A stretch of DNA of 64,000 nucleotides, taken from IMG/VR virus record IMGVR_UViG_3300045988_147927, positions 1-64,000 of that record; one strand, 5' to 3'. Position 1 is the stretch's first letter, and each line of letters opens with the position of its first letter. Below the pieces are notes generated by a model. The model saw only the letters and a program-made list of their open reading frames with translations. It made no database searches and was not told where the DNA came from. Origin of the DNA: a virus. The position numbers and the translations under genes were made by a program. Shown here piece after piece: positions 5,393 to 53,687 of the stretch.

Positions 5393-6817
5393 ATGGCAAA
5401 AACATTGTTAATTAATGATATGGATATAAGTGTGGTGGATTTAGAGGATTTCTATCATAAACGAGTTCGTGGTATAGGTGTATATGAGGTATTAGATACT
5501 AATCATATTAAGTCAGATGTAACCTATGCGATTGAAACACCTTTTACATTTACTGATATTGCAGTAACTGAGGTGTTTACTAAAGGTATATTTATATTAG
5601 ACTCTATGGCTATTGAAGAAGATGGTGTAGTTAATAGTGGTGACTTAATTGTTACACTTAGACATATGTTGCATAAGAGTCATGGGTTTGAAGAAATTGG
5701 TGATTATACTACTGTTGGTGATACATTACAGGATATTATGTGTAGGGAAAGTTTTGATGAAGAATCTTATAGTAGTAGTGTACAGTATTTAAACTTCGTC
5801 TATCAGGTTTTAACTGAGATAACTGATGTATTTAGTTATGTAGGTGGAGATAGCATTAAGGGTTGGATTCATTTTTTAAAACATTATACTATTCAATATG
5901 ATGGAGAATATCATATCTCATTTGTACCAATAAAAAAGTATAAAGAATTAGCACAAGATGTAGGTAATAAGAGTGTAACTCTTTTGCAGTATGTAATGTC
6001 TTTGGGGTATGATGTAATTCAAAGAAATGTATTTGTGAAGGGTAGTGGTGTGTATTATCGTTCAGTAGGTAAAGACGGGTATCCTTGTAGTTTAGATTTT
6101 ATCTTAGAGAATGATAAGTTACCTAAGATATATAGAGCTTGTTTAGATGAAGTAATGGGTAAGTATATTAAGCGGAATAGACAGTCTATTTTTTATAGTA
6201 GCTTTATCAATATCATCGATGTGATTGAGTGGGTTACTAAAAATTGTGATATTAATGATGTAGATATTGAGTATGTTAAACAGTATATGAAGGAAGTTAC
6301 TAATACTATCAATAGTAATGTAGATACTATCTTAAAGAAACAGGATTTTAAGTACCTATATGATTCTTTATTATTTTTGTATACTAAGGGGTATAAAACA
6401 TTAGATATTCATGAAGATTATTTGTTAGCTGTAAAGCAGAAATATACACAACAAGATGTAGATTCACATAAAGTACCTTTAAAATCTTATATCGATATTT
6501 CATTCTTATTCGATGTATTAGGGATTAGATATAAGATTGAGTATGGTGTGTATAATATTCTTGAAGTATTAAATATTCCTGTTAATGGTTCATTAGTGTA
6601 TCATAATAATCAACCTTATTACTACCATTCTATGTCTATTGAACGTGGTGAGTGTGTTCATAGAGTGTATTATAATCATTACAATAAAGAAGTATGTGAT
6701 ATTATGGGGTATGAGCCTGTAAAGGTTGATACTGTGTCATATGATAGTGGTGTTACAATTTTTAAAGATGTTACTACTGATGATAAGTGGAAAGAATTTT
6801 TAAAAAGTAAGGTTTAG
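5393..6817 (+). CDS. hypothetical protein (474 aa)
   Basis: Long ORF preceded by GAGGAGA. Confidence 0.8.
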   Translation: MAKTLLINDMDISVVDLEDFYHKRVRGIGVYEVLDTNHIKSDVTYAIETPFTFTDIAVTEVFTKGIFILDSMAIEEDGVVNSGDLIVTLRHMLHKSHGFEEIGDYTTVGDTLQDIMCRESFDEESYSSSVQYLNFVYQVLTEITDVFSYVGGDSIKGWIHFLKHYTIQYDGEYHISFVPIKKYKELAQDVGNKSVTLLQYVMSLGYDVIQRNVFVKGSGVYYRSVGKDGYPCSLDFILENDKLPKIYRACLDEVMGKYIKRNRQSIFYSSFINIIDVIEWVTKNCDINDVDIEYVKQYMKEVTNTINSNVDTILKKQDFKYLYDSLLFLYTKGYKTLDIHEDYLLAVKQKYTQQDVDSHKVPLKSYIDISFLFDVLGIRYKIEYGVYNILEVLNIPVNGSLVYHNNQPYYYHSMSIERGECVHRVYYNHYNKEVCDIMGYEPVKVDTVSYDSGVTIFKDVTTDDKWKEFLKSKV

Positions 6818-12494: not shown

Positions 12495-12525
12495 AAGAGA
12501 GTAGATTATCTACTCTCTTATTTTG
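12495..12525 (+). terminator. rho-independent terminator
   Basis: 11-bp stem AAGAGAGTAGA / TCTACTCTCTT with a 3-nt loop, followed by ATTTTGTT. Confidence 0.7.
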
Positions 12526-12529
12526 TTGT

Positions 12530-12616
12530 ATAACTTAACAAAACTTTACAATATAATAGATATGTGGTATACTATAGGTGTGATAGATATCGTATTTAAT
12601 CAAAGGAGAAATAAAA
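12530..12616 (+). promoter_or_regulatory. promoter + conserved leader cassette, copy 1
   Basis: TTTACA (12545-12550), 17-nt spacer, TGg-TATACT (12565-12573), then a conserved leader ending AATCAAAGGAGAAATAAAA-ATG. Nearly identical to 22583..22668. Confidence 0.65.
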
Positions 12617-22538: not shown

Positions 22539-22572
22539 AAGGTATGTTGCGTTGACAGCATACCTTATTTTT
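22539..22572 (+). terminator. rho-independent terminator
   Basis: Stem AAGGTATG / CATACCTT followed by ATTTTTA. Confidence 0.6.
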
Positions 22573-22582
22573 ATAATTTCAT

Positions 22583-22668
22583 ATAACTTAACAAAACTTT
22601 ACAATATAATAGATATGTGGTATACTATGAGTGTGATAAGAGTGGTATTAAATCAAAGGAGAAATAAA
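22583..22668 (+). promoter_or_regulatory. promoter + conserved leader cassette, copy 2
   Basis: TTTACA (22598-22603), 17-nt spacer, TGg-TATACT (to 22626), and a leader ending AATCAAAGGAGAAATAAA-ATG. Near-identical to 12530..12616. Confidence 0.65.
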
Positions 22669-22896
22669 ATGAAAAACTTTAAAATCTATATTGTGAGTGG
22701 TGAAGATAGTTCTAAGTATGAGATTTCTTTGGGTGAGTTAGTTACTAAAGGTAATTATACTGAAGATGAAGTTTGTAAGTTGTTAGATTATATTGAGTCC
22801 ACTAAGTACAAAACTTTCAGATGGAAGTTAGTACACAAGGATTCTATTCATGCTATGGATGGCGATGGGATTCAACACTACTTAGTTGTGTTATAA
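22669..22896 (+). CDS. hypothetical protein (75 aa)
   Basis: ATG 22669 follows the conserved RBS. The track ORF start at 22552 lies inside the terminator/promoter and is rejected. Confidence 0.6.
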   Translation: MKNFKIYIVSGEDSSKYEISLGELVTKGNYTEDEVCKLLDYIESTKYKTFRWKLVHKDSIHAMDGDGIQHYLVVL

Positions 22897-26167: not shown

Positions 26168-26616
26168 TAAGATGTCAAAATAACAATCATGAATTTATTC
26201 ATAAATATTTTTGACAGAATAGTAAGTCTGTAGGGAAACTTGCAGATAGTAGCAACTAGATGTTGTTCAACAAAGAAACTGAATTGCTGGGAACTCCTAA
26301 AGCTAGCTAAACTACAACGTGATATCTATTAATATGATATGGATGTGAATGTGGCGAAAGCAGAGAAAATTAGTTAGATGGTATAAGGTTAAACCCTAAG
26401 TACTGCGATAATGGATAATCAGCAGCCAAGCCCGTGAGGGAAGGTTCAACGACTATTCCTCGTGAGGGAAGTACATTCAAGCGAATGGAAGTGGTTTCGC
26501 CTAAGTCGTAAAAGTGATATGGATAAGATATAGTCTGTGCTTTATTGAAAGATAAAGATGCACGTAGTGGTGCTGGCTAAGTGGTAGCGTACTTAGTTGA
26601 ACGAGCGTTCTCTCAA
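26168..26616 (+). ncRNA. group I intron catalytic core (copy A)
   Basis: This stretch is more GC-rich than its surroundings. It contains AAGATATAGTC (26525-26535), which I recognise as the classical P7 3' strand and which pairs with GACTAT in GGTTCAACGACTAT. It has GNRA-capped hairpins (CCC-GTGA-GGG; TCTGTAGG-GAAA-CTTGCAGA). The hairpin CTTTAT-TGAAAG-ATAAAG (26540-26557) covaries with copy B. Confidence 0.7.
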
Positions 26617-26718
26617 AAATTTCATAGTTATAGTTATATATTTGATAATAGTTCCTATTAGTATTATAATAAAGATATTAGGATTCTTTATTCAGTATGA
26701 GAGGAGGTGTTATCATCT

Positions 26719-27810
26719 ATGAATAAAAGTTTTAAAGTTAGGATATATCCGACACAAGAACAAAAAATATTGTTAGAAAAGACCTTTGGTGCAAACAGGT
26801 TTGTTTATAATTACTTTCTCAACTTAAAAAGTAAGTTGTATGAGTTTTATAAAATAAGAATTAGTTATAATAATTCTTCTAAGATTCTAACTGAGTTGAA
26901 GAAACAAAAAACTTGGTTTAAAGAAGTTGATAGTGTTTCTTTACAACAAACACTTAGAGATTTAGATAGTGCGTATCAAAACTTTTTTAGTAGGAGATGT
27001 AAATATCCTAAATTTAAGAGAAAAGATGATAAAAACTCATATCGTACTAACTCTAATATTAAAATAGATAATTGGTATATAACAGTTCCTAAGGTGGGAA
27101 TGTTACATTTTAGAGATAAAAACAGATTTAGTGGTGTTACTAAAATTTATAATGTAACAATATCTAAGACATCTAGTGGAAAATATTTTGCTAGCATTTC
27201 AGCTGAGGTTGATATCGCAACTTTTGAGAAAAGCAATCAAAATGTAGGTATAGACTTGGGATTGAAAGATTTTGCTATTCTTAATACTGGAGAAAAGATA
27301 CATAATCCTAGAATATTAAAACATCTTGAAGATAAATACAGAAAGTTAGCTAAATCTGTTTCAAGAAAAGTTAAAGGTTCAGTTAATTATCAAAAAGCTA
27401 GGATTAAGTTAGCTAGGTTTCATGAATACATAGTTAATATACGAAAAGATTTTCTACACAAACTATCTACTAATATAGTTAAGACTTATGATATTATGTG
27501 TATAGAAAATCTCAATATTAGTGGTTTAATGAAAAATCGTAGATTAGAAAAATCATTTCAGAATGTTTCATTGTATGAGTTCATATGGATGTTAGAGTAT
27601 AAAGCTAAGTGGTATGGTAAGACTATTTCTAAAGTAGATAGATTTTATCCATCATCACAGTTATGTTCTAATTGTGGTTATAAGAATAAAGAAGTTAAAA
27701 ATCTTAGCGTTCGTGAGTGGGATTGTCCTGAATGTGGAACTATTCATGATAGAGATATAAACTCAGCAATTAATATTTTGCATGAGGGATTACGACTTTT
27801 AGAGATATAA
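26719..27810 (+). CDS. tnpB: TnpB (IS200/IS605 OrfB-type RNA-guided nuclease), apparently intact
   Basis: GAGGAGGTG RBS. N-terminal [13 protein letters not shown]. RuvC residues in [18 protein letters not shown] and [11 protein letters not shown]. Zinc ribbon CSNCGYKN...WDCPECG. Confidence 0.85.
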
Positions 27811-27817
27811 ATATATG

Positions 27818-27948
27818 AATATATAAGTATAACTGTGGGACACATGGGGATAGCCTATTGTCTGGTTGTAAGACTCTTTTAACATAGTATTAAAAGAGCG
27901 AACCATTGGGTAGGAACCTCACTGACTTTGAGTCATAGAGGATGTCAG
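27818..27948 (+). ncRNA. conserved 3'-terminal RNA module of element A (putative omega-RNA scaffold overlapping the intron 3' end)
   Basis: About 130 nt, nearly identical to 32876..33009 and clearly related to 42229..42359. Ends GAGGATGTCAG. The terminal hairpin TGACT-TTG-AGTCA covaries between copies. Confidence 0.65.
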
Positions 27949-32871: not shown

Positions 32872-33009
32872 TATATTATAAGTATAACCGTGGGACACAT
32901 GGGGATAGCCTATTGTCTGGTTGTAAGACTCTTTTAACATAGTATTAAAAGAGCGAACCGTTGGGTAGGAACCTCACTGACTTAATTAAAAGTCAAGAGA
33001 GGATGTCAG
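32864..33009 (+). mobile_element. solo copy of the IStron 3'-terminal RNA module (orphan omega-RNA-like / right-end remnant)
   Basis: AAGTATAACCGTGGGACACATGGGGATAGCCTATTGTCTGGTTGTAAGACTCTTTTAACATAGTATTAAAAGAGCGAACCGTTGGGTAGGAACCTCACTGACTT...GAGGATGTCAG differs from 27818..27948 by only a few substitutions plus a changed terminal hairpin. No ribozyme core or tnpB is adjacent. Confidence 0.75.
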
Positions 33010-40053: not shown

Positions 40054-40541
40054 GTGATTACAAAGATAGTCTTATTACTAGAAATTTAAGTCCTCATCAG
40101 CCTCTATATGCTTTTATAGATTTAAGTATTGATGGGCATAATATATCATATTTCGGTAATAAAGAATTTAATGATTCAGTAATTAGTCTTAATGTGGAAA
40201 GAAAAGGTACTTCTAATCAAGATTTAGCTGGTTCTACTTTTGATATAGAGTTGTATGATGATACTGCTTTAAGAATAGAAGAGCTGTTAGCGAATACTAT
40301 ACCAGCAGGTTCAAATTTTAAGACCGCTAAAGAGTTGAAAGATACTGGTAATAAGGTTACTGATGGTAATATCGAGTGGAAACAACAAGAGGAAGCTAAG
40401 AAAAAAGAGCAGGCAGAGAAGGATAATACATATACAGAGGAAGATGAAAAGAAAGACCCTAATCATAAAGCAGGCACTAAAAAACAGTCTGGTGGTGCAA
40501 CTCAGTCTGGAAATGTTAGGTGTAAATATGGATGGTGTGAT
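40050..40541 (+). CDS. baseplate hub / late-control-D-like multidomain protein, exon 1 (164 codons)
   Basis: TTG start after AGGGGTG. Ends ...NVRCKYGWCD, then an in-frame TAA that is the first triplet of element B. Confidence 0.65.
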
Positions 40542-41028
40542 TAAATGTGCTACATATATTCATAGTTATAGTTATGAATAGGTATGTATATAGCACGTAT
40601 AGTCCATACATCTAGTGATAGGTGTGTGTCGAGTGGTAACACTCGGAGATTCATTGAATTGCTGGAAAGTCCTAAAGCTCAATTAACTACAACGTGATAT
40701 CTAATAATATGATATGAGCGTGAATGGTAGCGAAAGCAGAAAAAATAATTGAGATGGTATAAGGTGAAATAAAAGCTATATCACATATGATATAGTCCTA
40801 AGTACTGAGATAATGGACAATCAGCAGCCAAGCACGTAAGTGAAGGTTCAACGACTATCCTGTGAAGGAGTACGGCTCTAGTGAGTGGGTGAGAATCCCT
40901 TAAATGGAAGTGGTGAAGGTCTTTCAGATAGAAAGATTAAGATATAGTCTGTGCCTACATGAAAGTGTAGGATGCACGTAGTGGTGCTGGCTAGAAGTAG
41001 CGATTCTAGTTGAACGAGCATCCTCTCA
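40542..41028 (+). ncRNA. group I intron catalytic core (copy B)
   Basis: AAGATATAGTC at 40939-40949. GGTTCAACGACTAT. Hairpins CGAGTG-GTAA-CACTCG and CAC-GTAA-GTG. CCTACA-TGAAAG-TGTAGG (40954-40971) covaries with copy A. Confidence 0.7.
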
Positions 41029-41131
41029 TAGAGAGTTTTATGGTTTTATATATATTGAAATTAATCTCCTTTTGTAGTACATTAATAATATAATGTTTAT
41101 TGTTAATGATACGAAAGGGGGTGTAAATCTC

Positions 41132-42224
41132 GTGAATAAGAGTTTTAAAGTTAGGATTTATCCAAATCAAGAACAGAAAGTCTTGATTGATAAGACATTT
41201 GGATGTGCAAGATTCATATACAATTTTATGTTGAATCTGAAACAAAAATTGTATGAGTATCATAATATTTCTTTAGGTTTTTATGACCTATCTAAGATTC
41301 TTACAGAAATTAAAAGACATAAATTGTGGCTTAAAGAAGTTGATAAGTGGGCATTACAAAATGCTTTAAAAGATTTAGATAGTGCTTATAAAAGATTTTA
41401 TAATGGTGGTGGATTTCCTAAGTTTAAATCTAAAAAGCGAGATAAAAACTCCTATCGTACAAATCATAGAATACAGTTAATTGTAGATAATAAGAAAGTT
41501 AAAATTTCCTAAAGTTGGTAGTATTAAGTTCAGAGATAAAAGTAGATTTGATGGAATTACTAAAATTTATAATATCACTATTTCTAGGACATCTAGTGGA
41601 AAATATTATGCTAGTATATCTGCTGAGGTTAATATTGAACATTTTGAGAAAACCAATCAGAGTGTGGGTATTGACTTGGGATTAAAAGATTTCTGTATCT
41701 TAAATGATGGAACTAAGTTTGAAAATCCTAAATTTTTAGTTAGAAATGAAAAGCGACTTAGATTACTTCAAAAATCGTTAAGTCGCAAGATTTGTGGTTC
41801 TAAAAACTATGAAAAAGCTAAGATAAAGTTAGCTAAATTTCATGAGTATATTGTTAATTTTCGTAAAGATTATTTACATAAAATATCGTTATATTTGGTT
41901 AGAAATTATGATATTTTATGTGCAGAAACATTGAGAGTTAAGAATATGGTAAAGAATCATAAGTTAGCTAAATCAATTAGTGATGTTAGTTGGTATGAAT
42001 TTTGTAGGCAGTTAGAGTATAAGTGTCTGTGGTATGGAAAGAGATTTGTACAGATTAGTACATATTTTGCATCATCACAAATATGTTCTAATTGTGGGTA
42101 TAAGAATTCTGATGTTAAAAATCTCAATGTAAGAGAATGGACTTGCTCTAAATGTGGCAGTCATAATGAAAGAGATATCAATGCATCGATTAATATTTTG
42201 CATGAAGGATTAAGAATTATATAA
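41132..42224 (+). pseudogene. tnpB: tnpB with a single frameshift near nt 41490-41510
   Basis: GTG start after GAAAGGGGGTG. The N-terminal frame stops at 41510-41512 (...DNKKVKIS*). The continuation [45 protein letters not shown]...GIDLGLKDF is in the +1 frame. The downstream RuvC and zinc-ribbon motifs are intact. Confidence 0.75.
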
Positions 42225-42228
42225 TTTC

Positions 42229-42359
42229 AGTATATAGAACCATAGGACATATGGGGATAGCCTACTGTCATAGTGTAAGACGTATAGTGAATCTGTTTCA
42301 TTATGTGTAATTATTGGGTAGGAACTTCGTCACTTTAATGAGTGGTGAGAGGATGTCAG
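42229..42359 (+). ncRNA. 3'-terminal RNA module of element B
   Basis: GGACATATGGGGATAGCCTACTGTC...TTGGGTAGGAACTTCGTCACTTTAATGAGTGGTGAGAGGATGTCAG is homologous to 27818..27948. Confidence 0.6.
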
Positions 42360-46714: not shown

Positions 46715-46853
46715 AGTGTAAAAAATTCATGTTAATTTTAGTATGGTATTCGATTATAAATATATGTGAGTGTTTAGAGTTGATTACTTTGTGTTTGGTT
46801 GATAAGTGTATTCTGTAGAAGTAGTTTTTATGATGTTTAGTGTATCTTCTTAC

Positions 46854-48235
46854 TGAAAGGTTGTTTTTATAGTATGTATATATCATAATCATCTTGTAAA
46901 AATAGAAAGTGGGGTGATAATAATGTACTTAACAATGAAGCAACAAGTAAAGCATTTAACTAAAGAAGAATATAATATTTTAAGAGAGTTGTGCAGAATA
47001 TCAAAGAATTTAACTAATCAAGCAATTTATAATATTAGACAATATTATTTTCAAGAAAAACAATATTTAAGGTATGAGTCTAACTATCATGAGTTAAAAA
47101 ATTCTGAGAATTATAAGTTGTTAAATTCTAATATGGCTCAACAGACCATTAAAGGTGTTGACTCAATGTTTAAGTCATTTTTTGCTTTAATTAGATTAGC
47201 AAAACAAGGTAAATATAGTTTTAAGCATATAAGATTGCCTAATTATTTACCTAAAGATGGGTATTCATGTTTAATTATTGCTCAGTTTAGTATTAAAGAT
47301 GGTAATGTTTTAATGATTCCATATTCTAATGCTTTTAATAAAAAATACAAAACAAGAGTTAGTGTTAGAGTTCCTAAAGTATTAGAAGATAAAAAGATAA
47401 AAGAAATTAGAATTATACCTAAATTTAATGCTAGGTTCTTCGAGATTCAATATACTTATGAAATTCAAGGAGAAAATATACAATTAAATACTAACAATGC
47501 ACTGGCTATTGATTTAGGGGTTAATAATTTGTGTACTTGCGTAACAAACATAGGCAAATCTTTTATTATTGATGGAAGAAAGTTAAAGTCTATCAATCAA
47601 TTCTTTAATAAGAGAAATGCGAGATTACAGTCCATTAAAGATAAGCAAAATATCAAGAAACAAACAAAGCAACAATATTTAATCTCTCAAAAGAGAAAGA
47701 ATAGAGTTGAGGATTATATCAATAAAGCATGTAGGTATATTATTAATTATTGTTTGTCTAATGATATTGGTATTTTAGTTATTGGTTATAATCAGTCATT
47801 TCAAAGTAAAGCTAATTTAGGGAATATAAACAATCAAACTTTTACTCAATTACCTTTTGGTAGGGTTAGAGATAAGTTAGATTGTTTATGCAAACGATAT
47901 AATATGAATTATATTCTACAAGAAGAATCTTATACGTCTAAAGCTAGTTTCTTTGATAATGATATTCTACCTATTTATAATGCGGATAATCCACAAACCT
48001 ATGAGTTTAGTGGTAAACGTATCAAAAGAGGTTTATACCAAACTAAAAATAATTATCGTTTTAATGCAGATTGTAATGGAGCATTAAATATTCTTCGTAA
48101 AAGTAAAGCTGTAGACTTAACAGTCTTATGCAGTAGGGGCGAACTGGACACGCCTAAAAGAATAAGGGTTTATTAGGATATCAAACTTCTTAATAAAATG
48201 ACTTTATGTTGTTTTTAGAATCATAGGATGTTCAG
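46854..48235 (+). mobile_element. TnpB-only IS200/IS605-type element C (second lineage)
   Basis: Sequence shared with 52250..53652 starts at TGAAAGGTTGTTTTTATAGTA, directly after TTAC (46850-46853), and ends ...GAATCATAGGATGTTCAG (48235). The flanks are unrelated between copies. Confidence 0.65.
46923..48176 (+). CDS. tnpB: TnpB-family protein, zinc-finger-less lineage
   Basis: AIDLGVNNL (RuvC-I Asp) ... LVIGYNQSFQSKANLG ... QEESYTSKASF ... FNADCNGALNILRK (RuvC-III Asp). 418 aa. Confidence 0.8.
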   Translation: MYLTMKQQVKHLTKEEYNILRELCRISKNLTNQAIYNIRQYYFQEKQYLRYESNYHELKNSENYKLLNSNMAQQTIKGVDSMFKSFFALIRLAKQGKYSFKHIRLPNYLPKDGYSCLIIAQFSIKDGNVLMIPYSNAFNKKYKTRVSVRVPKVLEDKKIKEIRIIPKFNARFFEIQYTYEIQGENIQLNTNNALAIDLGVNNLCTCVTNIGKSFIIDGRKLKSINQFFNKRNARLQSIKDKQNIKKQTKQQYLISQKRKNRVEDYINKACRYIINYCLSNDIGILVIGYNQSFQSKANLGNINNQTFTQLPFGRVRDKLDCLCKRYNMNYILQEESYTSKASFFDNDILPIYNADNPQTYEFSGKRIKRGLYQTKNNYRFNADCNGALNILRKSKAVDLTVLCSRGELDTPKRIRVY

Positions 48236-48263
48236 AAATATATGTTAGAAGGGGTGATGATTT

Positions 48264-48743
48264 TTGGCTTTTTATTACAATAATGAATTTAAGGATACAA
48301 TAGCTGGTAGAGGATTATCACTTAATAATACTTTTACAGTAAATTATAGAGATGGTAAAGGGGTAACAAATGTAATTAGTGGTGAGGAGAAGATAAACGA
48401 GAGTATATTCTCAATTCTATCGACTAGGGTAGGTGAAAGGTTTTTCGTGCCAGAGTTTGGTAGTCGATTACATTTAGTACTTTTTGAGCAAAATAAATAT
48501 ATTGCTCAGGATTTGATATCTATTTATATACGAGAAGCATTGTCTAACTGGGAAAAGAGGATTGTTGTTGAGGATGTGGCTTTAGGAGATGGGTGGGAGG
48601 ATTCTAATGTTGTTCCAATTCATATTACCTATAGTCTTGCTAACAGTAATGTCATGGGTTCATATGTATACCCTTTTAATAGGAGTATAGATGGTGTTGA
48701 TATGTATGATTTAGGGAGTTCTAACAATATAACAGCTTATTAG
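48264..48743 (+). CDS. baseplate wedge protein gp25 / GPW-like
   Basis: INESIFSILSTRVGERFFVPEFGSRLHLVLFEQN is the gp25-like signature. TTG start after GAAGGGGTG. Confidence 0.8.
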   Translation: MAFYYNNEFKDTIAGRGLSLNNTFTVNYRDGKGVTNVISGEEKINESIFSILSTRVGERFFVPEFGSRLHLVLFEQNKYIAQDLISIYIREALSNWEKRIVVEDVALGDGWEDSNVVPIHITYSLANSNVMGSYVYPFNRSIDGVDMYDLGSSNNITAY

Positions 48744-48760
48744 AAAGGGGGTTTTACTTT

Positions 48761-50206
48761 TTGGCTAGTAGCAATAATTCAATGTCTTATACTGGAAGAG
48801 ATATTGTCAGTATAAGGAAAGAATTGATAAATACAATACCTACGTTGACAGATAAGTGGACTGATTTTAATGAGTCTGATTTAGGTATGGTGTTGGTTGA
48901 GTTAATGGCTGGTGTACAAGATATGCAAAACTTCTATCTTGATACACAGGCTTTTGAAACATATAGTGATACTGCGGTTCAAGATAAGAATGTTAGAGCA
49001 TTACTACGTTCTATGAATTATAGGATACCGTTGGCTAAATCAGCTGAGTGTATAGTAAGGATTACATTTGTTAATAATGACATACGAGATATAACCATTC
49101 CTAAATATACGTCGTTTACGAGTAGTGTTAATACAAGTGTTATTAATTATGTTGCTAAAGATACAGTAACAAAGAGTGGTAATTTTGATTATATTGATAT
49201 ACCAGTTATGGAGGGTATTGCTAGGTCTATAACATGGAGTAAGGATGATTTTATATCTAATGTCAATGTAGATGGTGATATATCTAGAAGAATTTATTTA
49301 GGGTATAAGAATGTTTCTGATGGTTCTGTTGAAATTGTTCAGAGTGGTAATGTTTGGGAAGAGTGTGATGATGCTCTATTAAAATATGAAGGTGGTCGGT
49401 GGTTTTCTGTTCATGCAGATGCTGAAGGTCAGGTATATGTTTTAATGTCTGTCAATTTTTTACAACTGATTGAAGATGGCGAGACTATTACATTTAATTT
49501 TGTAACAACAAGTGGTATGCAGGGTGTTGTTGATATGGATGTAATAAATACCATAAATATGAGTATTCAAGGTGTTCAGAGGATATATAATACAACTAAG
49601 TCATATGATTCAGCTGATGTTCCTAGTAGTTCTGATTTACAAGATATGAAAGTACTTGCTAGAAGAAATGCTGTTACAATGGGTAGACTTATTACTTTAG
49701 AAGATTTTGAGACAGCTTTATATAAGAATCCTTATATTTATAGTGCAGTTGTTAAGGATTGGAAATATAGTGATTATGTAGATGAGCCTTATATTGTTAA
49801 AATATGGGCTGTAAATAATCTTGGTGAGTCTTTAGGCGAGTTGACTAGAGAAAAGTTAAAAAAGGATTTAATGTCTAAGGCTATTGCTGATGTGACTGTT
49901 CAAGTGTTGGAAGTAGAGAATGTTAATTTTGATATAGATGTTGATGTTGTGTTATCTCTTGACAATGCAACAGCTAGAGAGAGATTAAGGACAGAGATTA
50001 AAAACTATTTATCCACTAAATATCGAACTGAGGTAATGGGGTTTGGTGAGACAATATCATATTCATTACTAACTTCTAGGGTTCAAGCATATTCACCTTA
50101 TGTAAAAGATGTCAGGGTTAAGACACCTAATAAAGATATAAAAGTTGGTAATATACAATTCCCTAAACTTGGAAATGTTGTTGTTAATTTAGTAGATGAA
50201 TTATAG
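48761..50206 (+). CDS. baseplate J-like protein (gp6 / gpJ family)
   Basis: TDFNESDLGMVLVELMAGVQDMQNFYLDTQAFETY and its position after the gp25-like gene. Confidence 0.75.
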   Translation: MASSNNSMSYTGRDIVSIRKELINTIPTLTDKWTDFNESDLGMVLVELMAGVQDMQNFYLDTQAFETYSDTAVQDKNVRALLRSMNYRIPLAKSAECIVRITFVNNDIRDITIPKYTSFTSSVNTSVINYVAKDTVTKSGNFDYIDIPVMEGIARSITWSKDDFISNVNVDGDISRRIYLGYKNVSDGSVEIVQSGNVWEECDDALLKYEGGRWFSVHADAEGQVYVLMSVNFLQLIEDGETITFNFVTTSGMQGVVDMDVINTINMSIQGVQRIYNTTKSYDSADVPSSSDLQDMKVLARRNAVTMGRLITLEDFETALYKNPYIYSAVVKDWKYSDYVDEPYIVKIWAVNNLGESLGELTREKLKKDLMSKAIADVTVQVLEVENVNFDIDVDVVLSLDNATARERLRTEIKNYLSTKYRTEVMGFGETISYSLLTSRVQAYSPYVKDVRVKTPNKDIKVGNIQFPKLGNVVVNLVDEL

Positions 50207-50214
50207 GTGTTGTA

Positions 50215-51522
50215 ATGAAATTAGTTGATAAATTAAGAAATAATAAGTATATGACACTTATTCCGGATAAATACAAAGAGAATGAAAATTTTCTAGTATT
50301 TTTCCATCTACTAATAACTCAATTCAATATTAATGAAGAGAACATAAGGAATTTTACTAATTTAATTAATAATGATAAAGTACCTATGAAGTTTTTACAG
50401 AATCTAGGTGCATTTGTCAATTACTCCTATCAGCATTTAGCTAAGAATGATTTTAATCGTGAGTTGTCAATGCGTATGCATAATATATGGGAACAGAGGG
50501 GTAGTAAGAAGTCTATAGTTGATGCCGCCACGTATGGTGATAACATAGGGTGGGTAGGTGGGGATTTATGGATACCTGGTTATTATAAGCCATCAGCAAT
50601 AGCTGGGTTTGAGTTGCCAAGAGATAGGATTTTTAGACATAGTGTTTCTAAATTTTCTAGTACTCATGTCTTTGAAGATGGTAAGACATATATGCCTGGT
50701 GTTATATTACTCTCTGTACCTAATTTGACTAGGTTAGTAAAAAAACGTATATACGAGGTTACTCCTGCTGGTAGAAAGTATATATTTCAGATTGAATCTT
50801 CGTTCTTCCCTAATGATGGGATAGATAAATTAGATATAGGTTCTTATAATGAGTTGTCTTTTTATAAGAGAATGAGGGTATATCCTAAAGACATTAATGA
50901 AGAGAATCCACCATATGACAGGGATACAGATATAGATTTCACATATGAGATTGATATGATGGCTAATATGGATGAGTTTTTTAACATACTTATTCATAGT
51001 GAAAATAGAGGTAAGAAGTATCATAGTGGACATTTAACAAATATAACTAACTATGGGTATGAGATGAATATGTCAGCATCTATGTTACCAGTAAGTTTTT
51101 TATCTCATAAATTCCCTGTAAATGGTAATGATTCTCTACCTGACAATGCATATAAAAAATCTAAGACTGGTGAATATTTAGATACTTATAACAATAAAGG
51201 GATAGATTCTATTATGAGGGATATATCTCTTATCAATGATAATAATGTAGATTTAGATGTTCATAGAGAAGTTAGGTTGACTGCTATACGGAGTGAGAGT
51301 TCTTCTAGTAGGTCAGGGAATGGTAAGATGAGTGGTATAACATCTAGTATTGTTGATGCTTTTGTAGAATCTGAGCCTATATTACCTAGCGATTGTTTGT
51401 ATTCTGTTGATGATGTTGCTGATTTGAATGAAAATTGTTTTAGAGATGAATTTTATTCAAGTGGTGTACAGATAAATGGTGATAGAGAGTATCCGTGGAG
51501 ATTGTCTTTAACTCATATATAG
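50215..51522 (+). CDS. baseplate wedge / tail protein I-like
   Basis: Synteny after the J-like gene. N-terminal LIPDKYKENENFLVFFHLL...LQNLGAFVN pattern. Confidence 0.5.
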   Translation: MKLVDKLRNNKYMTLIPDKYKENENFLVFFHLLITQFNINEENIRNFTNLINNDKVPMKFLQNLGAFVNYSYQHLAKNDFNRELSMRMHNIWEQRGSKKSIVDAATYGDNIGWVGGDLWIPGYYKPSAIAGFELPRDRIFRHSVSKFSSTHVFEDGKTYMPGVILLSVPNLTRLVKKRIYEVTPAGRKYIFQIESSFFPNDGIDKLDIGSYNELSFYKRMRVYPKDINEENPPYDRDTDIDFTYEIDMMANMDEFFNILIHSENRGKKYHSGHLTNITNYGYEMNMSASMLPVSFLSHKFPVNGNDSLPDNAYKKSKTGEYLDTYNNKGIDSIMRDISLINDNNVDLDVHREVRLTAIRSESSSSRSGNGKMSGITSSIVDAFVESEPILPSDCLYSVDDVADLNENCFRDEFYSSGVQINGDREYPWRLSLTHI

Positions 51523-51581
51523 TTAGTAATATATAATATTGTAATATTTAATAGAGTGATAGTTGTGGAGGTATAAATACT

Positions 51582-52124
51582 TTGGCTATTTGTACATTAA
51601 AAGCTCATGTATCAAGAGCTTTAGATTTTTATAAAAAAGATGATATTTATTTTGCTATAGGTAAAGGTTCTCAATGGACTGCATCTGATTTAGAAAACTT
51701 TGATACCACTAGGGATTATGATATGAATCCACCAGTACCTAAAAATACTGATGATATGAAAGAGTTGATTGGTTTTAAAAAGTCTGAGTTTAAGGCTTTG
51801 GTAATTCAAGATGACAATGGTTCATTGGAGTATCGTGGCGTTAATTGGAGAATTGTTAGTCCTGATGATGCTATTACGCAAGGTGCTAGGTGGGTATATG
51901 TTTCTACTGAATTGTCTTATGATGAGTTGCCTACAGATAAACCATATCGTCAGGTTGGTATTTATACTGGACTAAGGAAGTCAGAGTCAGTACAGGGTAA
52001 TGTGTATAATTTATTACCTAATCAGGTTGTAGATAAAGGTTTGTTAGAAGTAATAGATTATCGTAAACCTGTATATAGGGATACTGATGTTAGGGAAAAA
52101 TTAAAAATTATTTTAGAATTTTAG
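51582..52124 (+). CDS. hypothetical structural protein
   Basis: 180-aa ORF; TTG start after GGAGGT. Confidence 0.6.
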   Translation: MAICTLKAHVSRALDFYKKDDIYFAIGKGSQWTASDLENFDTTRDYDMNPPVPKNTDDMKELIGFKKSEFKALVIQDDNGSLEYRGVNWRIVSPDDAITQGARWVYVSTELSYDELPTDKPYRQVGIYTGLRKSESVQGNVYNLLPNQVVDKGLLEVIDYRKPVYRDTDVREKLKIILEF

Positions 52125-52249
52125 CCGTGAGATGTGGATAGTAAAGGTTCTAGGAAACTATCACATAGTGGTAGTTCTTATACTATCCAACTAAGACATC
52201 TAATTGATTTTAGAAATATGGTTCTAAAAATGTCCTATAAGATTTTTAC

Positions 52250-53652
52250 TGAAAAGTTGTTTTTATAGTAAAAACATATTATAATCATCTTGTAATATAA
52301 TAGAAAGCGAGGTGATATTAATGTACTTAACGATAAAGCAACAGGTAAAACATTTAACTAAAGAAGAATATAATATTTTAAGAGAATTGTGTAGAATATC
52401 AAAGAATTTAACTAATCAAGCAATTTATAATGTAAGACAGCATTATTTTCAAGAAAAACAATATTTGAGATATGAAGCGAATTATCATGAATTAAAGAAT
52501 TGTGAAAACTATAAATTGTTGAATTCTAATATGGCTCAACAGACTCTTAAAAATGTTGATTCAATGTTTAAATCATTCTTCGCTTTGATTAGATTAGCAA
52601 AACAGAGTAAATACAGTTTTAAATATATAAAGTTACCTAAATATTTACCTAAAAATGGTTATGCAAATTTAATCATTCAAATGATTAATATTAAAGATAG
52701 CATAATAACACTTCCTGTTTCTAATGCTTTTAAGAAAAAACTTGATAGGAGACTTAAAGTTCAAATTAAAATTCCTAAGGTGTTAGAAGATAAAAAGATA
52801 AAGCAGATTCAAATTATTCCTAAATTTAATGCTAGGTTCTTCGAGATTCAGTATACATATGAGATTCAAGAAGAAGAAATTAAATTAGATATCAACAATG
52901 CACTAGCTATTGATTTAGGAGTTAATAATTTGTGTACTTGTGTTACTAACATAGGTAAATCTTTTATTGTAGATGGGAGAAAGTTAAAATCTATCAATCA
53001 ACTTTTTAATAAACAAAATGCAAGATTGCAGTCTATTAGAGATAAGCAAAATATTCTTAGACAGACAAAACAACAATTCTTAATCTCTCAAAAGAGAAAG
53101 AATAGAGTTGATGATTATATTAATAAAACGTGTCGATATATTATTAATTATTGTTTGTCTAATGATATTGGTACTTTAGTTATTGGTTATAATCCGTCAT
53201 TTCAAAATAAGGCTAATCTAGGGAAGAAAACTAATCAAACTTTTACTCAATTACCTTTTGGTAGGGTTAGAGATAAGTTAGAATATTTATGTAAACGATA
53301 TAATATTAATTATATTTTACAAGAAGAATCTTATACTTCTAAAGCTAGTTTCTTTGATAATGATGAGTTACCTGTTTATAATGCGGATAATCCACAAACA
53401 TATGAATTTAGTGGTAAACGTGTTAGAAGAGGTTTATACCAAACTAGAAACAATTATCTTTTTAATGCAGATTGTAATGGTGCATTAAATATTCTTCGTA
53501 AAAGTAGAGCTGTAGACCTAAGGGTCTTATGCAGTAGGGGCGAACTGGACACGCCTAAGAGAATAAGGGTTTCTTAGTAAACCAAACTTCTTAATAAAGA
53601 GACTTTTTAAGTTTCTTTTAGAATCATATGACTAAAATCATGTGATGTTCAG
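52250..53652 (+). mobile_element. TnpB-only IS200/IS605-type element D (second lineage)
   Basis: Starts TGAAAAGTTGTTTTTATAGTA directly after TTAC (52246-52249) and ends ...TGTGATGTTCAG (53652). Homologous to element C throughout. Confidence 0.65.
52321..53577 (+). CDS. tnpB: TnpB-family protein, zinc-finger-less lineage (paralogue of 46923..48176)
   Basis: Collinear with copy C, with most residues identical and the same motifs. 419 aa. Confidence 0.8.
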   Translation: MYLTIKQQVKHLTKEEYNILRELCRISKNLTNQAIYNVRQHYFQEKQYLRYEANYHELKNCENYKLLNSNMAQQTLKNVDSMFKSFFALIRLAKQSKYSFKYIKLPKYLPKNGYANLIIQMINIKDSIITLPVSNAFKKKLDRRLKVQIKIPKVLEDKKIKQIQIIPKFNARFFEIQYTYEIQEEEIKLDINNALAIDLGVNNLCTCVTNIGKSFIVDGRKLKSINQLFNKQNARLQSIRDKQNILRQTKQQFLISQKRKNRVDDYINKTCRYIINYCLSNDIGTLVIGYNPSFQNKANLGKKTNQTFTQLPFGRVRDKLEYLCKRYNINYILQEESYTSKASFFDNDELPVYNADNPQTYEFSGKRVRRGLYQTRNNYLFNADCNGALNILRKSRAVDLRVLCSRGELDTPKRIRVS

Positions 53653-53687
53653 TTTAGAGTTTTAGTTAGTTTGAGGGAATATATAGA

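What the first reader, a model, noticed from the sequence alone, without database searches (positions are those of the whole stretch)
46854..53652. Second TnpB lineage: two direct-repeat copies bracket the baseplate wedge cassette
Elements C (46854-48235) and D (52250-53652) share sequence from TGAAA(G/A)GTTGTTTTTATAGTA to ...GATGTTCAG. Most positions are identical by eye, and the flanks are unrelated. Both are preceded by TTAC, the classical IS608-type target/TAM.

Both are intergenic. C lies between the spike gene's terminator and the gp25-like gene; D lies between 51582..52124 and the 1212-aa structural gene. Each stops only ~30-35 nt before the next gene's start, so the predicted guides overlap downstream translation-initiation regions. 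For C the guide AAATATATGTTAGAAGGGGT covers the GAAGGGGTG RBS of the gp25-like gene.

The two ~1.4 kb direct repeats flank exactly four baseplate genes (gp25-like, J-like, I-like and one unknown). This composite-transposon-like geometry could mediate deletion, duplication or exchange of the wedge/host-range cassette by homologous recombination.

The 3' end GATGTTCAG resembles the GATGTCAG end of the IStron lineage.
Basis: partly seen in the sequence, partly recalled or inferred. Interest (0 to 1): 0.65.

Follow-up and report, generated by a model that had tools for sequence, protein, structure and literature searches.

The report
Ribozyme-less IStron remnants carrying TnpB
The two 1.5-kb repeats in this jumbo phage's baseplate region are decayed copies of a known selfish element, an IStron (self-splicing intron plus the RNA-guided nuclease TnpB), that have lost the intron and their left end; they are not IS608-type transposons bracketing a swappable gene cassette.

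Summary
The repeats are real. Each encodes an intact TnpB (417 and 418 aa, 84% identical to each other), and the proposed right ends (48235, 53652) are exact.

The left ends and the proposed TTAC target are wrong. Phages 97-99% identical to this one have empty sites, and these show that the inserted DNA starts 86 nt (C) and 125 nt (D) further upstream. In both cases it lies downstream of TTAT.

About 90 relatives at 49 different sites are mostly 1.9-kb group-A IStrons. They consist of a group I intron, tnpB and a structured 3' RNA, sit between TTAT and ...TTCAG, and usually lie inside genes whose reading frame is restored when the element is removed. TTAC is an internal motif beside the tnpB promoter.

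D keeps about 74 nt of the intron leader but lacks the ribozyme core and the left-end hairpin. C lacks all of that and also the right-end hairpin.

Both are flanked by a 10-13-nt duplication of the target next to TTAT. For D this duplication rebuilds the last codons of the upstream baseplate gene.

C and D are old, independent acquisitions (dS 0.5). Many related genomes carry D alone, neither element, or a 93-nt scar of C. The cassette-exchange idea therefore has no support. D's distribution fits lateral homing.

The parts
46754..46757 (+). TTAT, the target/TAM motif of the C site
   Evidence: Empty sites in L040-L042 read ...GATTAT|AAATATATGTTAGAAGG. TTAT flanks 41 of 42 full-length family members.
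46758..46767 (+). Left copy of the 10-nt target duplication AAATATATGT (13 nt if one mismatch is allowed)
   Evidence: Present once in the empty sites and twice in the window, at 46758-67 and 48236-45.
46768..46849 (+). Orphan 82-nt filler at the left of C. It is absent from empty sites and is not recognisably IStron-derived.
   Evidence: Alignment to D's stub and to the IStron leader scores no better than shuffled sequence, z about 0. No match in any locus or in IMG/VR. It is retained in the 93-nt mini-C scar of L144.
46850..46922 (+). Start of the block shared with D: internal TTAC (46850-53), promoter-like TTGTTT-17-CATAAT (46861-89) and the RBS
   Evidence: Alignments. The motif is conserved as TTTAC+TGAAAA in all relatives, downstream of the intron. 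The promoter assignment comes from reading the sequence only.
46923..48176 (+). tnpB of C (417 aa), intact
   Evidence: Pfam OrfB_IS605 at 2e-29. NCBIfam guided_TnpB 182 bits against a cut-off of 100. D197/E334/D383 are invariant in the family. Only 4 private substitutions at family-invariant sites.
48060..48235 (+). Structured 3' region of C (predicted omega-RNA scaffold / right end). It lacks the terminal hairpin because of a 14-nt deletion and ends ...GATGTTCAG.
   Evidence: Alignment A3 and covariation. Helix 9 is absent only in C.
48236..48255 (+). 3' flank of C, the predicted guide. The first 10 nt are the right copy of the duplication. It overlaps the RBS of the gp25-like gene.
   Evidence: Empty sites resume here. 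It matches TTAT-adjacent empty sites in L040, L143 and L145 at 20 of 20 positions.
52108..52111 (+). TTAT, the target/TAM motif of the D site, inside the BW3TFN gene
   Evidence: Empty sites read AAATTAT|TTTAGA(G/A)TTTTAGTTTGAGGG.
52112..52124 (+). Left copy of the 13-nt target duplication TTTAGAATTTTAG. It supplies the last codons (L E F stop) of gene 51582-52124.
   Evidence: Pfam BW3TFN matches 1-174 of 174 profile positions.
52125..52198 (+). Remnant of the IStron 5' leader. The terminal ~32 nt, including the left arm of the left-end hairpin, are missing, and the ~410-nt ribozyme core is deleted after ...CCAACTAAGACA.
   Evidence: Alignment to the L012 IStron scores 92 against about 18 for shuffles. 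See also the alignment.
52199..52320 (+). Post-intron segment: hairpin TTTTAGAA-ATATGG-TTCTAAAA (52208-29), internal TTAC (52246-49), promoter-like TTGTTT-17-TATAAT (52257-85) and the RBS
   Evidence: Conserved in all relatives.
52321..53577 (+). tnpB of D (418 aa), intact
   Evidence: The identical protein is encoded on at least 22 public contigs.
53461..53652 (+). Structured 3' region of D (predicted omega-RNA scaffold / right end), complete, with terminal hairpin at 53625-53644, ending ...GATGTTCAG
   Evidence: Across the 27-sequence alignment, 99% of cells are paired and 10 pairs show compensatory changes; 0 of 500 shuffles reach these values. In that alignment D keeps the terminal hairpin that C lacks.
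53653..53672 (+). 3' flank of D, the predicted guide. The first 13 nt are the right copy of the duplication (TTTAGAGTTTTAG), followed by an extra TTAG (53666-69) not seen in empty sites.

Best explanation
**What they are.** C and D are two independently acquired, degenerate members of one group-A (IS200/IS605-type) IStron family that has spread through this clade of ~200-235-kb phages from human-associated metagenomes. The intact element is about 1.9 kb. It inserts after TTAT and consists of a left-end hairpin, a group I ribozyme, a tnpB promoter, tnpB, and a structured 3' RNA with a right-end hairpin ending TTCAG. It encodes no TnpA.

**State of D.** D has lost the first ~32 nt, including the left-end hairpin arm, and the ribozyme core.

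**State of C.** C has lost everything upstream of the tnpB promoter, which is replaced by 82 nt of orphan DNA, and half of the right-end hairpin.

**Shown consequences.** Neither can splice, because no ribozyme is present. Neither has the left-end hairpin, and C has neither hairpin.

**Inferred consequence.** A Y1 TnpA could not mobilise them.

**Why they are tolerated (inferred).** A 10-13-nt duplication of the TTAT-proximal target restores what the insertion would have broken. For D that is the last codons of the BW3TFN baseplate gene. C's target is intergenic, upstream of the gp25-like gene's RBS.

**How D works and spreads (inferred).** D still encodes an intact TnpB and a complete omega-RNA scaffold, with its guide read from the 3' flank. 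It most likely behaves like a free-standing homing endonuclease cassette. In mixed infections, TnpB-omega-RNA would cut TTAT-adjacent empty alleles, and repair from the D-bearing genome would copy D in.

**Fate of C (inferred).** C is probably guide-defective and on its way out.
For: **Boundaries.** Empty sites in phages 97-99% identical to the window (L040-L043) place the insertions at 46768-48245 and 52125-53665, each flanked by a 10- or 13-nt repeat directly after TTAT.

**Family.**
- About 92 copies occur at 49 distinct 3' flanks.
- Conserved sequence extends about 540 nt upstream of the proposed left end in most relatives.
- That upstream part is a group I intron: Rfam RF00028, 71.5 bits against a gathering score of 50 in L011.
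- Twenty checked elements are 1.88-1.92 kb. Deleting TTAT|...TTCAG| restores long same-strand ORFs in most, for example 499+84, 500+162, 164+156 and 229+147 aa; four sit at or just past gene ends.
- The 5' flank is TTAT at 41 of 42 sites, with no 3' preference.
- This matches the published definition of group-A IStrons: ATTAT/TTTAT target and TCAG 3' end (PMC4227781).

**D as a derivative.** D aligns with the IStron leader and then jumps to the post-intron segment. No intron is detectable in the window even at E<=1.

**TnpB integrity.**
- Family assignments.
- The RuvC D/E/D triad is invariant.
- dN/dS is 0.11-0.20.
- There is no excess of private substitutions.

**Structured 3' RNA.** Nine helices were counted, 99% of cells are paired, 10 pairs show compensatory changes, 0 of 500 shuffles reach these values, and slid controls give only 1-3 such pairs. 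C alone lacks helix 9.

**Independence and lateral spread.**
- C versus D has dS 0.50.
- D versus its orthologous-site copy in L017 has dS 0.40, while flanking genes have dS 1.0-1.7.
- D is absent from phages 97-99% identical to the window.
- D's exact protein occurs on at least 22 contigs, whereas C's is on none.
- L144 carries a 93-nt scar of C.

**IS200/IS605 affinity.** A distant relative, L034 (51% identity), has a Y1 TnpA-like ORF directly upstream.
Against: - No expression, cleavage or splicing data exist. TnpB activity, omega-RNA ends and the guide length are inferred.
- The family's TnpB lacks the usual CxxC zinc-finger cysteines and has no sequence-detectable relative in the PDB, so nuclease activity cannot be taken for granted.
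- C's derivation from an intron-containing copy is not shown. Its 82-nt left filler has no detectable homolog, so C could descend from an intron-less form.
- Some intron-less relatives (L076, L091) abut TTAT without any leader remnant. This leaves open that intron-less forms are old.
- No co-conversion tract is visible next to D. Low dS in tnpB could partly reflect constraints on overlapping RNA.
- How a TnpA-less family reached 49 sites is unexplained.
Confidence: 0.8

Rival explanations
1. C and D are IS608-type TnpB insertion sequences bounded by TTAC and GATGTTCAG. Together they form a composite-transposon-like pair that can delete, duplicate or exchange the four baseplate genes between them.
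For: The geometry is real: two co-oriented ~1.4-kb repeats flank four genes. TTAC precedes both shared blocks. Eight sites are shared uniquely by C and D, five of them within 80 nt, which hints weakly at a short gene-conversion tract.
Against: - Empty sites put the left ends 86 and 125 nt upstream, after TTAT.
- TTAC is internal in all relatives, and the family target is TTAT.
- C and D differ by 13.5% with dS 0.5.
- Genomes with D only, with neither element, or with a C scar all keep the same four genes in the same order at about 99% identity.
- Neither element has a left-end hairpin.
- Deletion of the interval would remove a gp25-like baseplate wedge gene and three neighbouring baseplate-module genes.
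Confidence: 0.03
2. C and D descend from an ancestral intron-less IS200/IS605 TnpB element. The 1.9-kb IStrons are the derived form, having captured the ribozyme later. On this view C and D never lost an intron.
For: Intron-less relatives exist in which TTAT directly abuts the post-intron hairpin (L076, L091). C shows no intron remnant. The same ribozyme module is combined with a different TnpB lineage in element A of this window, so the modules do get shuffled.
Against: D and L017 keep about 74 nt that align with the IStron leader upstream of the ribozyme core, fused directly to the post-intron segment. An internal deletion explains this; a never-had-it history does not. Intron-containing copies account for 42 of the 49 distinct sites.
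Confidence: 0.1
3. C and D are domesticated, TldR-like RNA-guided regulators. Their guides cover the translation-initiation regions of the gp25-like gene and the 1212-aa fibre-network gene, so TnpB would bind there and tune baseplate gene expression.
For: The guides do overlap the downstream RBS regions. tnpB is under purifying selection. TTAT-adjacent partial matches of 10 and 12/13 nt lie at the left junctions.
Against: - The RuvC triad is intact, unlike nuclease-dead TldR.
- The full guide match in cis is preceded by TTCAG, not by the TAM.
- Phages 97-99% identical to the window lack the elements altogether, so they are dispensable.
- The guide-RBS overlap follows simply from where the elements landed.
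Confidence: 0.03
4. Both copies are inert fossils. TnpB and the omega-RNA are no longer active in either, and the presence/absence pattern reflects ordinary recombination and deletion among phages, not nuclease-driven homing.
For: - Both have lost the left end, and C has lost the right-end hairpin.
- C is decaying in the population, as shown by the 93-nt scar in L144.
- Empty sites that match C's guide 20 of 20 persist.
- No co-conversion tract is seen.
- The zinc-finger cysteines are absent.
Against: - Both ORFs are intact, with dN/dS 0.11-0.18 and no excess private changes.
- D's 3' RNA keeps all covarying helices.
- D-site elements are 2.5-4 times less diverged at synonymous sites than their flanks.
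- D's protein is identical on at least 22 contigs.
Confidence: 0.25

Closest known systems
Group-A IStrons (CdISt1 of Clostridioides difficile; FnISt1/FnISt2 of Fusobacterium; Tourasse et al. 2014, PMC4227781; Zedaveinyte et al. 2023, 10.1101/2023.11.20.567912)
   Same: - The family's intact members have a 5' group I intron.
- They have no or a degenerate ORF A, plus a TnpB ORF B.
- They insert after a T-rich pentanucleotide (ATTAT/TTTAT) and end in TCAG.
- They lie in sense orientation inside genes, whose ORF is restored on removal.
- The structured 3' RNA overlaps the 3' splice site.

C and D share the TnpB, the 3' RNA, the TCAG end and the TTAT target.
   Different: - C and D have no ribozyme, and neither has the left-end hairpin.
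- They are flanked by 10-13-nt target duplications, whereas group-A IStrons are described as making none.
- The carriers are large phages rather than bacterial chromosomes. Only group-B IStrons were reported in C. botulinum phages.
- The TnpB lacks zinc-finger cysteines.
Non-autonomous IS200/IS605 TnpB-omega-RNA elements (ISDra2, IS608 type; Meers et al. 2023, PMC10055086)
   Same: One tnpB gene, an omega-RNA scaffold overlapping its 3' end, the guide read from the 3' flank, a T-rich TAM 5' of the target, and the proposed role in DSB-driven re-copying into empty sites.
   Different: - The TAM is TTAT, not TTAC or TTGAT.
- There is no usable left-end hairpin, and in C no right-end hairpin either.
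- The TAM is separated from the retained element by a copy of the first 10-13 nt of the target.
- The elements derive from an intron-bearing form.
Free-standing homing endonuclease genes of T4-like phages (Seg, Mob; reviewed in PMC13565253 and PMC2988022)
   Same: A nuclease gene sits between conserved structural genes. It is patchily present among close relatives, found at the same site in diverged phages, and would be expected to spread during co-infection by cutting the allele that lacks it.
   Different: Target recognition here would be RNA-guided through TnpB-omega-RNA, not protein-based. Discrimination of self from non-self would come from the TAM being displaced in the occupied allele. 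No experimental evidence exists.
TldR (TnpB-like nuclease-dead repressors)
   Same: A TnpB-family protein whose guide matches a regulatory region of a neighbouring gene.
   Different: The RuvC triad is conserved here. The elements are dispensable and polymorphic. The guide match in cis lacks the TAM.

Membership tests
TnpB (RNA-guided endonuclease, IS200/IS605 superfamily) | Sequence membership in the OrfB_IS605 / guided_TnpB models above curated cut-offs | tested here: met
   Pfam PF01385 gives 102.6 and 103.4 bits against a cut-off of 30.5. NCBIfam NF040570 gives 182 and 192 bits against a cut-off of 100.
TnpB (RNA-guided endonuclease, IS200/IS605 superfamily) | Intact RuvC catalytic triad (D...E...D) | tested here: met
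   D197, E334/E335 and D383 are invariant in the 18-sequence alignment A2. The mapping to catalytic residues rests on motif position (AIDLG, QEESYTS, NADxNGA), not on a structural alignment. No PDB sequence hit was found.
TnpB (RNA-guided endonuclease, IS200/IS605 superfamily) | Zinc-finger (CxxC...CxxC) in the TNB domain | tested here: not met
   No cysteine pairs lie between the E and the last D. The Pfam TNB hit is weak: 24.8 bits for C, below the 26.3 cut-off, and 31.8 for D.
TnpB-omega-RNA element | Conserved structured RNA overlapping the 3' end of tnpB and ending at the element boundary | tested here: met
   For D and the family, 48 pairs are 99% paired, 10 pairs show compensatory changes, 0 of 500 shuffles reach these values, and slid controls give 1-3. 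C lacks the terminal helix.
TnpB-omega-RNA element | RNA-guided cleavage of TAM-adjacent targets | not testable with these tools
   Needs biochemical or in vivo interference assays.
IS200/IS605 insertion sequence (mobile by Y1 TnpA) | Subterminal hairpins at both left and right ends | tested here: not met
   Full-length relatives have a 5' hairpin (CTCGTGATTTTAATCATGAG) resembling the right-end hairpin. D keeps at most the right arm of it. C has neither a left- nor a right-end hairpin.
IS200/IS605 insertion sequence (mobile by Y1 TnpA) | Element-encoded or nearby TnpA (HUH/Y1) | tested here: not met
   There is no room for an ORF between the intron and tnpB. A crude Y1 motif search over 1.2 Mb of held sequence hit only beside the distant relative L034. 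No HMM scan of all window ORFs was done.
IS200/IS605 insertion sequence (mobile by Y1 TnpA) | Insertion 3' of a short T-rich motif without target-site duplication | tested here: inconclusive
   The motif is met: TTAT at 41 of 42 sites. Full-length copies have no duplication. C, D and L008 do have 10-13-nt duplications, which I attribute to a secondary event.
   Empty sites have TTAT. TTAC lies 82 nt (C) and 121 nt (D) inside the insertion.
Group-A IStron | Group I (IA2) ribozyme at the 5' end | tested here: not met
   Met in relatives: RF00028 gives 71.5 bits in L011, with homologous sequence in about 40 loci. Absent in C and D: no hit at E<=1. D retains only about 74 nt of leader.
Group-A IStron | Target ATTAT/TTTAT/TTGAT and 3' terminus TCAG | tested here: met
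   Both sites read ATTAT, and both ends read ...GTTCAG. The definition comes from PMC4227781.
Group-A IStron | Removal restores the interrupted gene (splicing) | tested here: inconclusive
   In silico removal restores long ORFs in most of the 20 full-length relatives checked. This does not apply to C and D, where a DNA duplication, not splicing, restores the flank. Splicing itself cannot be tested here.
Composite transposon | The two flanking copies and the interval move or vary as a unit | tested here: not met
   Genomes with D only, with neither element, or with a C scar plus D all have the same interval.
TldR-like nuclease-dead regulator | Loss of RuvC catalytic residues | tested here: not met
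   The triad is conserved.

The most novel reading that the evidence does not exclude
The 10-13-nt duplications of the TTAT-proximal target may be repair scars of TnpB-omega-RNA cleavage.

They flank every left-end-truncated copy found (C; D and its orthologs; L008/L009) and none of the roughly 38 left-end-intact sites (one search gives Fisher p about 1e-4).

The proposed sequence of events is:
1. An empty allele is cut inside its 20-nt target.
2. The left DNA end keeps TTAT plus the first 10-13 nt.
3. The right side is rebuilt from an IStron-bearing co-infecting genome, supplying the right end plus the full target.
4. The left joint is sealed by end-joining or microhomology inside the element. 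ATTTTAG is shared at D's joint.

This one-sided repair would remove the ribozyme and left end and, in the same step, create the duplication that makes splicing unnecessary. A transposon-borne intron would thereby become a free-standing, RNA-guided homing cassette.

If correct, these would be natural footprints of TnpB cutting and of RNA-guided homing in phage populations.
Probability: 0.35. Interest if true: 0.7.

Novelty: new variant of a known kind. Interest (0 to 1): 0.45.

Why it matters
The identification itself is ordinary.

Three things go beyond routine annotation:

1. **Natural population data.** A clade of large human-associated phages carries a very active IStron family, with at least 49 insertion sites. 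For single sites the data include occupied, empty and scarred alleles in phages 97-99% identical to the window.
2. **Evidence bearing on homing.** D is a TnpA-less, ribozyme-less derivative. It is found at the same site in phages whose backbones are far more diverged than the element. Recent reviews say this kind of evidence for TnpB acting as a homing endonuclease is still lacking.
3. **A testable route of change.** The association between loss of the left end and a TAM-proximal target duplication suggests how an intron-transposon could turn into a free-standing nuclease cassette. It may also report where TnpB cuts in vivo.

For annotation, C and D should not be used to infer a TTAC TAM or a mobile baseplate cassette.

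Tried and rejected
- **GenBank phages.** Megablast of the 9-kb region found nothing. Distant and protein modes gave only relatives at <=39% identity, so comparisons had to come from IMG/VR and metagenomes.
- **Rfam on the window.** No group I intron at gathering score or at E<=1, not even for element A, whose intron is 81% identical to a relative's. L022 was also missed while L011 was hit. Rfam negatives here are therefore weak evidence, and I relied on sequence homology to the L011-type intron.
- **PDB sequence searches.** Neither the single protein nor an 18-sequence profile gave a hit. No structure prediction was run.
- **Origin of C's 82-nt filler.** No similarity to D's stub, the IStron leader, any held locus or IMG/VR.
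- **"C and D start at the same IStron position."** I first thought so because of a shared GTGAG. I rejected it after the alignment statistics.
- **Co-conversion tracts next to D.** Mismatch density immediately right of D is as low as on the left. The rise 400 nt away looks like a variable region of the fibre gene.
- **Empty sites for two more truncated copies.** Exact-pattern scans for L008 and L091 found none.
- **Promoter/terminator scan.** Uninformative: 47 sites found against 45.5 expected.
- **Recent intragenomic duplication of C and D.** Rejected on dS 0.50.
- **Host.** The only clue is a 208-kb contig binned as "uncultured Gemella sp.", which is not enough to name a host.

Full report
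**1. The observation**

The repeat finder and a pairwise alignment confirm two co-oriented copies, from about 46848 to 48235 and from about 52244 to 53652. Each contains one long ORF. The first in-frame ATG preceded by a GGTGA-type RBS is at 46923 for C (417 aa) and 52321 for D (418 aa).

Both proteins match Pfam OrfB_IS605 (about 103 bits) and NCBIfam guided_TnpB (182 and 192 bits against a cut-off of 100). The genes between them are a gp25-like gene, two unassigned genes and a BW3TFN baseplate gene. A Phage_base_V spike gene lies upstream and a DUF4815 1212-aa gene downstream.

The window is 31% G+C and is a myovirus structural region. It also holds a second, unrelated TnpB family (elements A and B).

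**2. Where the elements really begin and end**

GenBank phages hold nothing close. IMG/VR holds phages 97-99% identical to the window (L040-L043) that lack both elements.

- **C site, empty:** ...TCGATTAT AAATATATGT TAGAAGGGGTG...
- **C site, window:** ...ATTAT AAATATATGT [GAGTG...GATGTTCAG AAATATATGT] TAGAAGG...
- **D site, empty:** ...AAATTAT TTTAGA(G/A)TTTTAG TTTGAGGG...
- **D site, window:** ...ATTAT TTTAGAATTTTAG [CCGTGAG...GATGTTCAG TTTAGAGTTTTAG] TTAG TTTGAGGG...

Four conclusions follow:

- The left ends are 86 nt (C) and 125 nt (D) further upstream.
- Each insertion is flanked by a 10-13-nt direct duplication that starts immediately after TTAT.
- TTAC lies inside the inserted DNA.

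D's target begins 13 nt before the stop codon of the BW3TFN gene. The left copy of the duplication supplies its last codons.

**3. What family they belong to**

Searches with the TnpB proteins recovered 39 IMG/VR loci, 78 metagenome loci and one binned 208-kb contig. Most lie on contigs of 200-235 kb. Together they give about 92 copies at 49 different 3' flanks.

In most copies, conserved sequence continues about 540 nt upstream of the TTAC motif. That stretch is a group I intron: Rfam RF00028 scores 71.5 bits against a gathering score of 50 in L011.

Twenty full-length elements that I delimited are 1.88-1.92 kb. They are flanked by NTTAT on the left and end in TTCAG. Removing most of them in silico fuses long ORFs on the same strand, for example 499+84, 500+162, 164+156 and 229+147 aa. 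Four sit at or just past gene ends.

Over 42 distinct full-length sites, the 5' flank is TTAT in 41 and CTAT in one. There is no preference on the 3' side.

This is the published signature of group-A (IS200/IS605-type) IStrons: insertion after ATTAT/TTTAT/TTGAT, a 3' terminus of TCAG, ORF A lost and ORF B kept (PMC4227781; PMC13565253). A more distant relative (L034, 51% identity) still has a Y1 TnpA-like ORF directly upstream.

The TTAC motif sits just before a TTGyTT-17-TATAAT promoter-like sequence upstream of tnpB in every copy. The promoter call comes from reading the sequence only, because the generic scan was uninformative.

**4. The state of C and D**

D, like its orthologous-site copy L017, aligns with the IStron leader over about 74 nt. 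It then jumps to the post-intron segment, so the ~410-nt ribozyme core has been deleted. It also lacks the first ~32 nt, which in intact copies form the left arm of a terminal hairpin resembling the right-end hairpin.

C has 82 nt of orphan sequence in place of everything upstream of TTAC.

The last ~210 nt of the family form a conserved structure:

- 48 pairs are 99% paired.
- 10 pairs show compensatory changes.
- 0 of 500 shuffles reach these values.
- Slid controls give only 1-3 compensatory pairs.

This is what an omega-RNA scaffold overlapping the 3' end of tnpB should look like. D has all helices. C has a 14-nt deletion that removes the terminal hairpin.

Both tnpB ORFs look healthy:

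- The RuvC D/E/D positions are invariant.
- dN/dS is 0.11-0.20.
- Private changes at family-invariant sites are no more frequent than in intron-bearing copies.

The family has no zinc-finger cysteines and no sequence hit in the PDB. Activity is therefore inferred, not shown.

**5. History and population**

C and D are not recent duplicates. Their dS is 0.50, about the same as either shows against copies in other phages.

D's exact protein is encoded on at least 22 public contigs. Five were inspected:

- All five carry D with identical junctions.
- None carries full C.
- One (L144) has a 93-nt scar of C, in which the filler is joined to the last 18 nt by a deletion between GTTTTTA repeats. The scar is still flanked by the same 10-nt duplication.

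C's exact protein is not on record.

D also sits at the same site in a phage (L017) whose flanking genes differ from the window's by dS 1.0-1.7, while the two elements differ by dS 0.40. It is absent from phages that differ from the window by dS 0.01-0.13. The simplest reading is lateral copying of D into the same site. This is inference, and I found no adjacent co-conversion tract.

The empty sites lack the TTAG that follows D's right repeat. They are therefore not simple repeat-mediated deletions of a window-like allele.

**6. The cassette idea**

The four genes between C and D are present in the same order at about 99% identity in three kinds of genome: those with neither element, those with D only, and one with D plus a C scar. 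Nothing links the pair as a unit.

The only hint of interaction is eight sites shared uniquely by C and D, five of them within 80 nt. This may be a short gene-conversion tract.

**7. The duplications**

IS200/IS605 elements and group-A IStrons are described as making no target duplication, and the full-length copies here have none.

All three independent copies that lack the element's 5' terminus do have one:

- C: 10 nt, or 13 nt if one mismatch is allowed.
- D and L017: 13 nt.
- L008/L009: 10 nt.

Each duplication begins right after the TAM-like motif. Two intron-less copies that keep the 5' junction (L020, L076) have no duplication.

In D and L008 the duplication ends at, or one base after, the stop codon of the interrupted gene. 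Selection for a restored gene end is therefore part of the explanation.

I propose, as a hypothesis only, that a break inside the TnpB target of an empty allele was repaired homologously on the 3' side and by end-joining on the 5' side. Deciding this needs cut-site mapping and more examples with known empty sites. Searches for two further empty sites failed.

**8. Verdict**

The elements belong to a known kind. Interest is moderate, and it rests on the population-level evidence for lateral spread and on the association between truncation and duplication.

Noticed in passing
window 26168-27948 (element A); L014 5421-5890: Element A is a full-length group-A IStron. It follows TTTAT at 26163-67 and ends GGATGTCAG at 27948. 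Its TnpB is of a different lineage (IS200_TnpB, 458 bits). Its ribozyme is 80.7% identical over 461 nt to the ribozyme attached to the C/D-type TnpB in other phages. One intron module is therefore combined with two TnpB lineages.
   Followed up: partly
window ~40542-42359 (element B); L041/L042: Element B is a copy of the A family whose tnpB is split into two ORFs (41093-41512 and 41664-42224). It is absent from the phages L041 and L042, which are 97% identical to the window and whose alignment jumps from 40541 to 42354.
   Followed up: partly
window 32877-33009: A solo copy of the last ~130 nt of element A lies here. It is 98% identical over 107 nt, ends GGATGTCAG at 33009, and has no tnpB. 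It could be an orphan right end or guide-RNA module.
   Followed up: no
L144 3833-3925 (C site of a related phage): A 93-nt miniature of C: the orphan filler is fused to GAATCATAGGATGTTCAG by a deletion between GTTTTTA repeats (about window 46829 and 48216). It is flanked by the same 10-nt duplication.
   Followed up: yes
window 47953-47981 and 53354-53382: The best promoter-like match in the region (TTGATA-17-TATAAT, 11 of 12) lies inside tnpB, about 250-270 nt before the right end, in both C and D. It could be an internal promoter for the 3' structured RNA. It also encodes the conserved FFDND...YNAD motif, so its conservation may be due to the coding sequence.
   Followed up: no
window 12518-12616 and 22571-22669: A 99-nt direct repeat, 87% identical, ends in AAAGGAGAAATAAAA and contains TATACT/TATAAT-like boxes. 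It looks like a repeated promoter/leader region upstream of two genes.
   Followed up: no
alignment A2 (C/D TnpB family), residues ~336-383 of C: This TnpB clade has no CxxC pairs between the RuvC E and the last D, so the usual zinc finger of the TNB domain is missing. Neither the protein nor the 18-sequence profile finds any PDB chain.
   Followed up: partly
L034 ~5570-5800, upstream of its tnpB: The 51%-identical relative L034 has a Y1/HUH transposase-like ORF (..YHLILVCKYR..HIHYMIE..) directly upstream. It appears to be an autonomous IS200/IS605 element of the same TnpB clade.
   Followed up: no
L054 (USNF01000001.1, 208 kb, 'uncultured Gemella sp.'): The only close hit among species-representative genomes is a phage-sized contig binned as Gemella. 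It carries a full-length IStron of this family. This is a possible host clue for the whole phage clade.
   Followed up: no
L100 2001-3330; L101; L001: Further decayed copies exist. L100 shares C's exact 3' hairpin sequence, but its similarity to C begins only at the tnpB ATG, with unrelated sequence upstream, and it ends in TTCAT. L101 ends in TTCAA. L001 has a divergent 3' terminus.
   Followed up: partly
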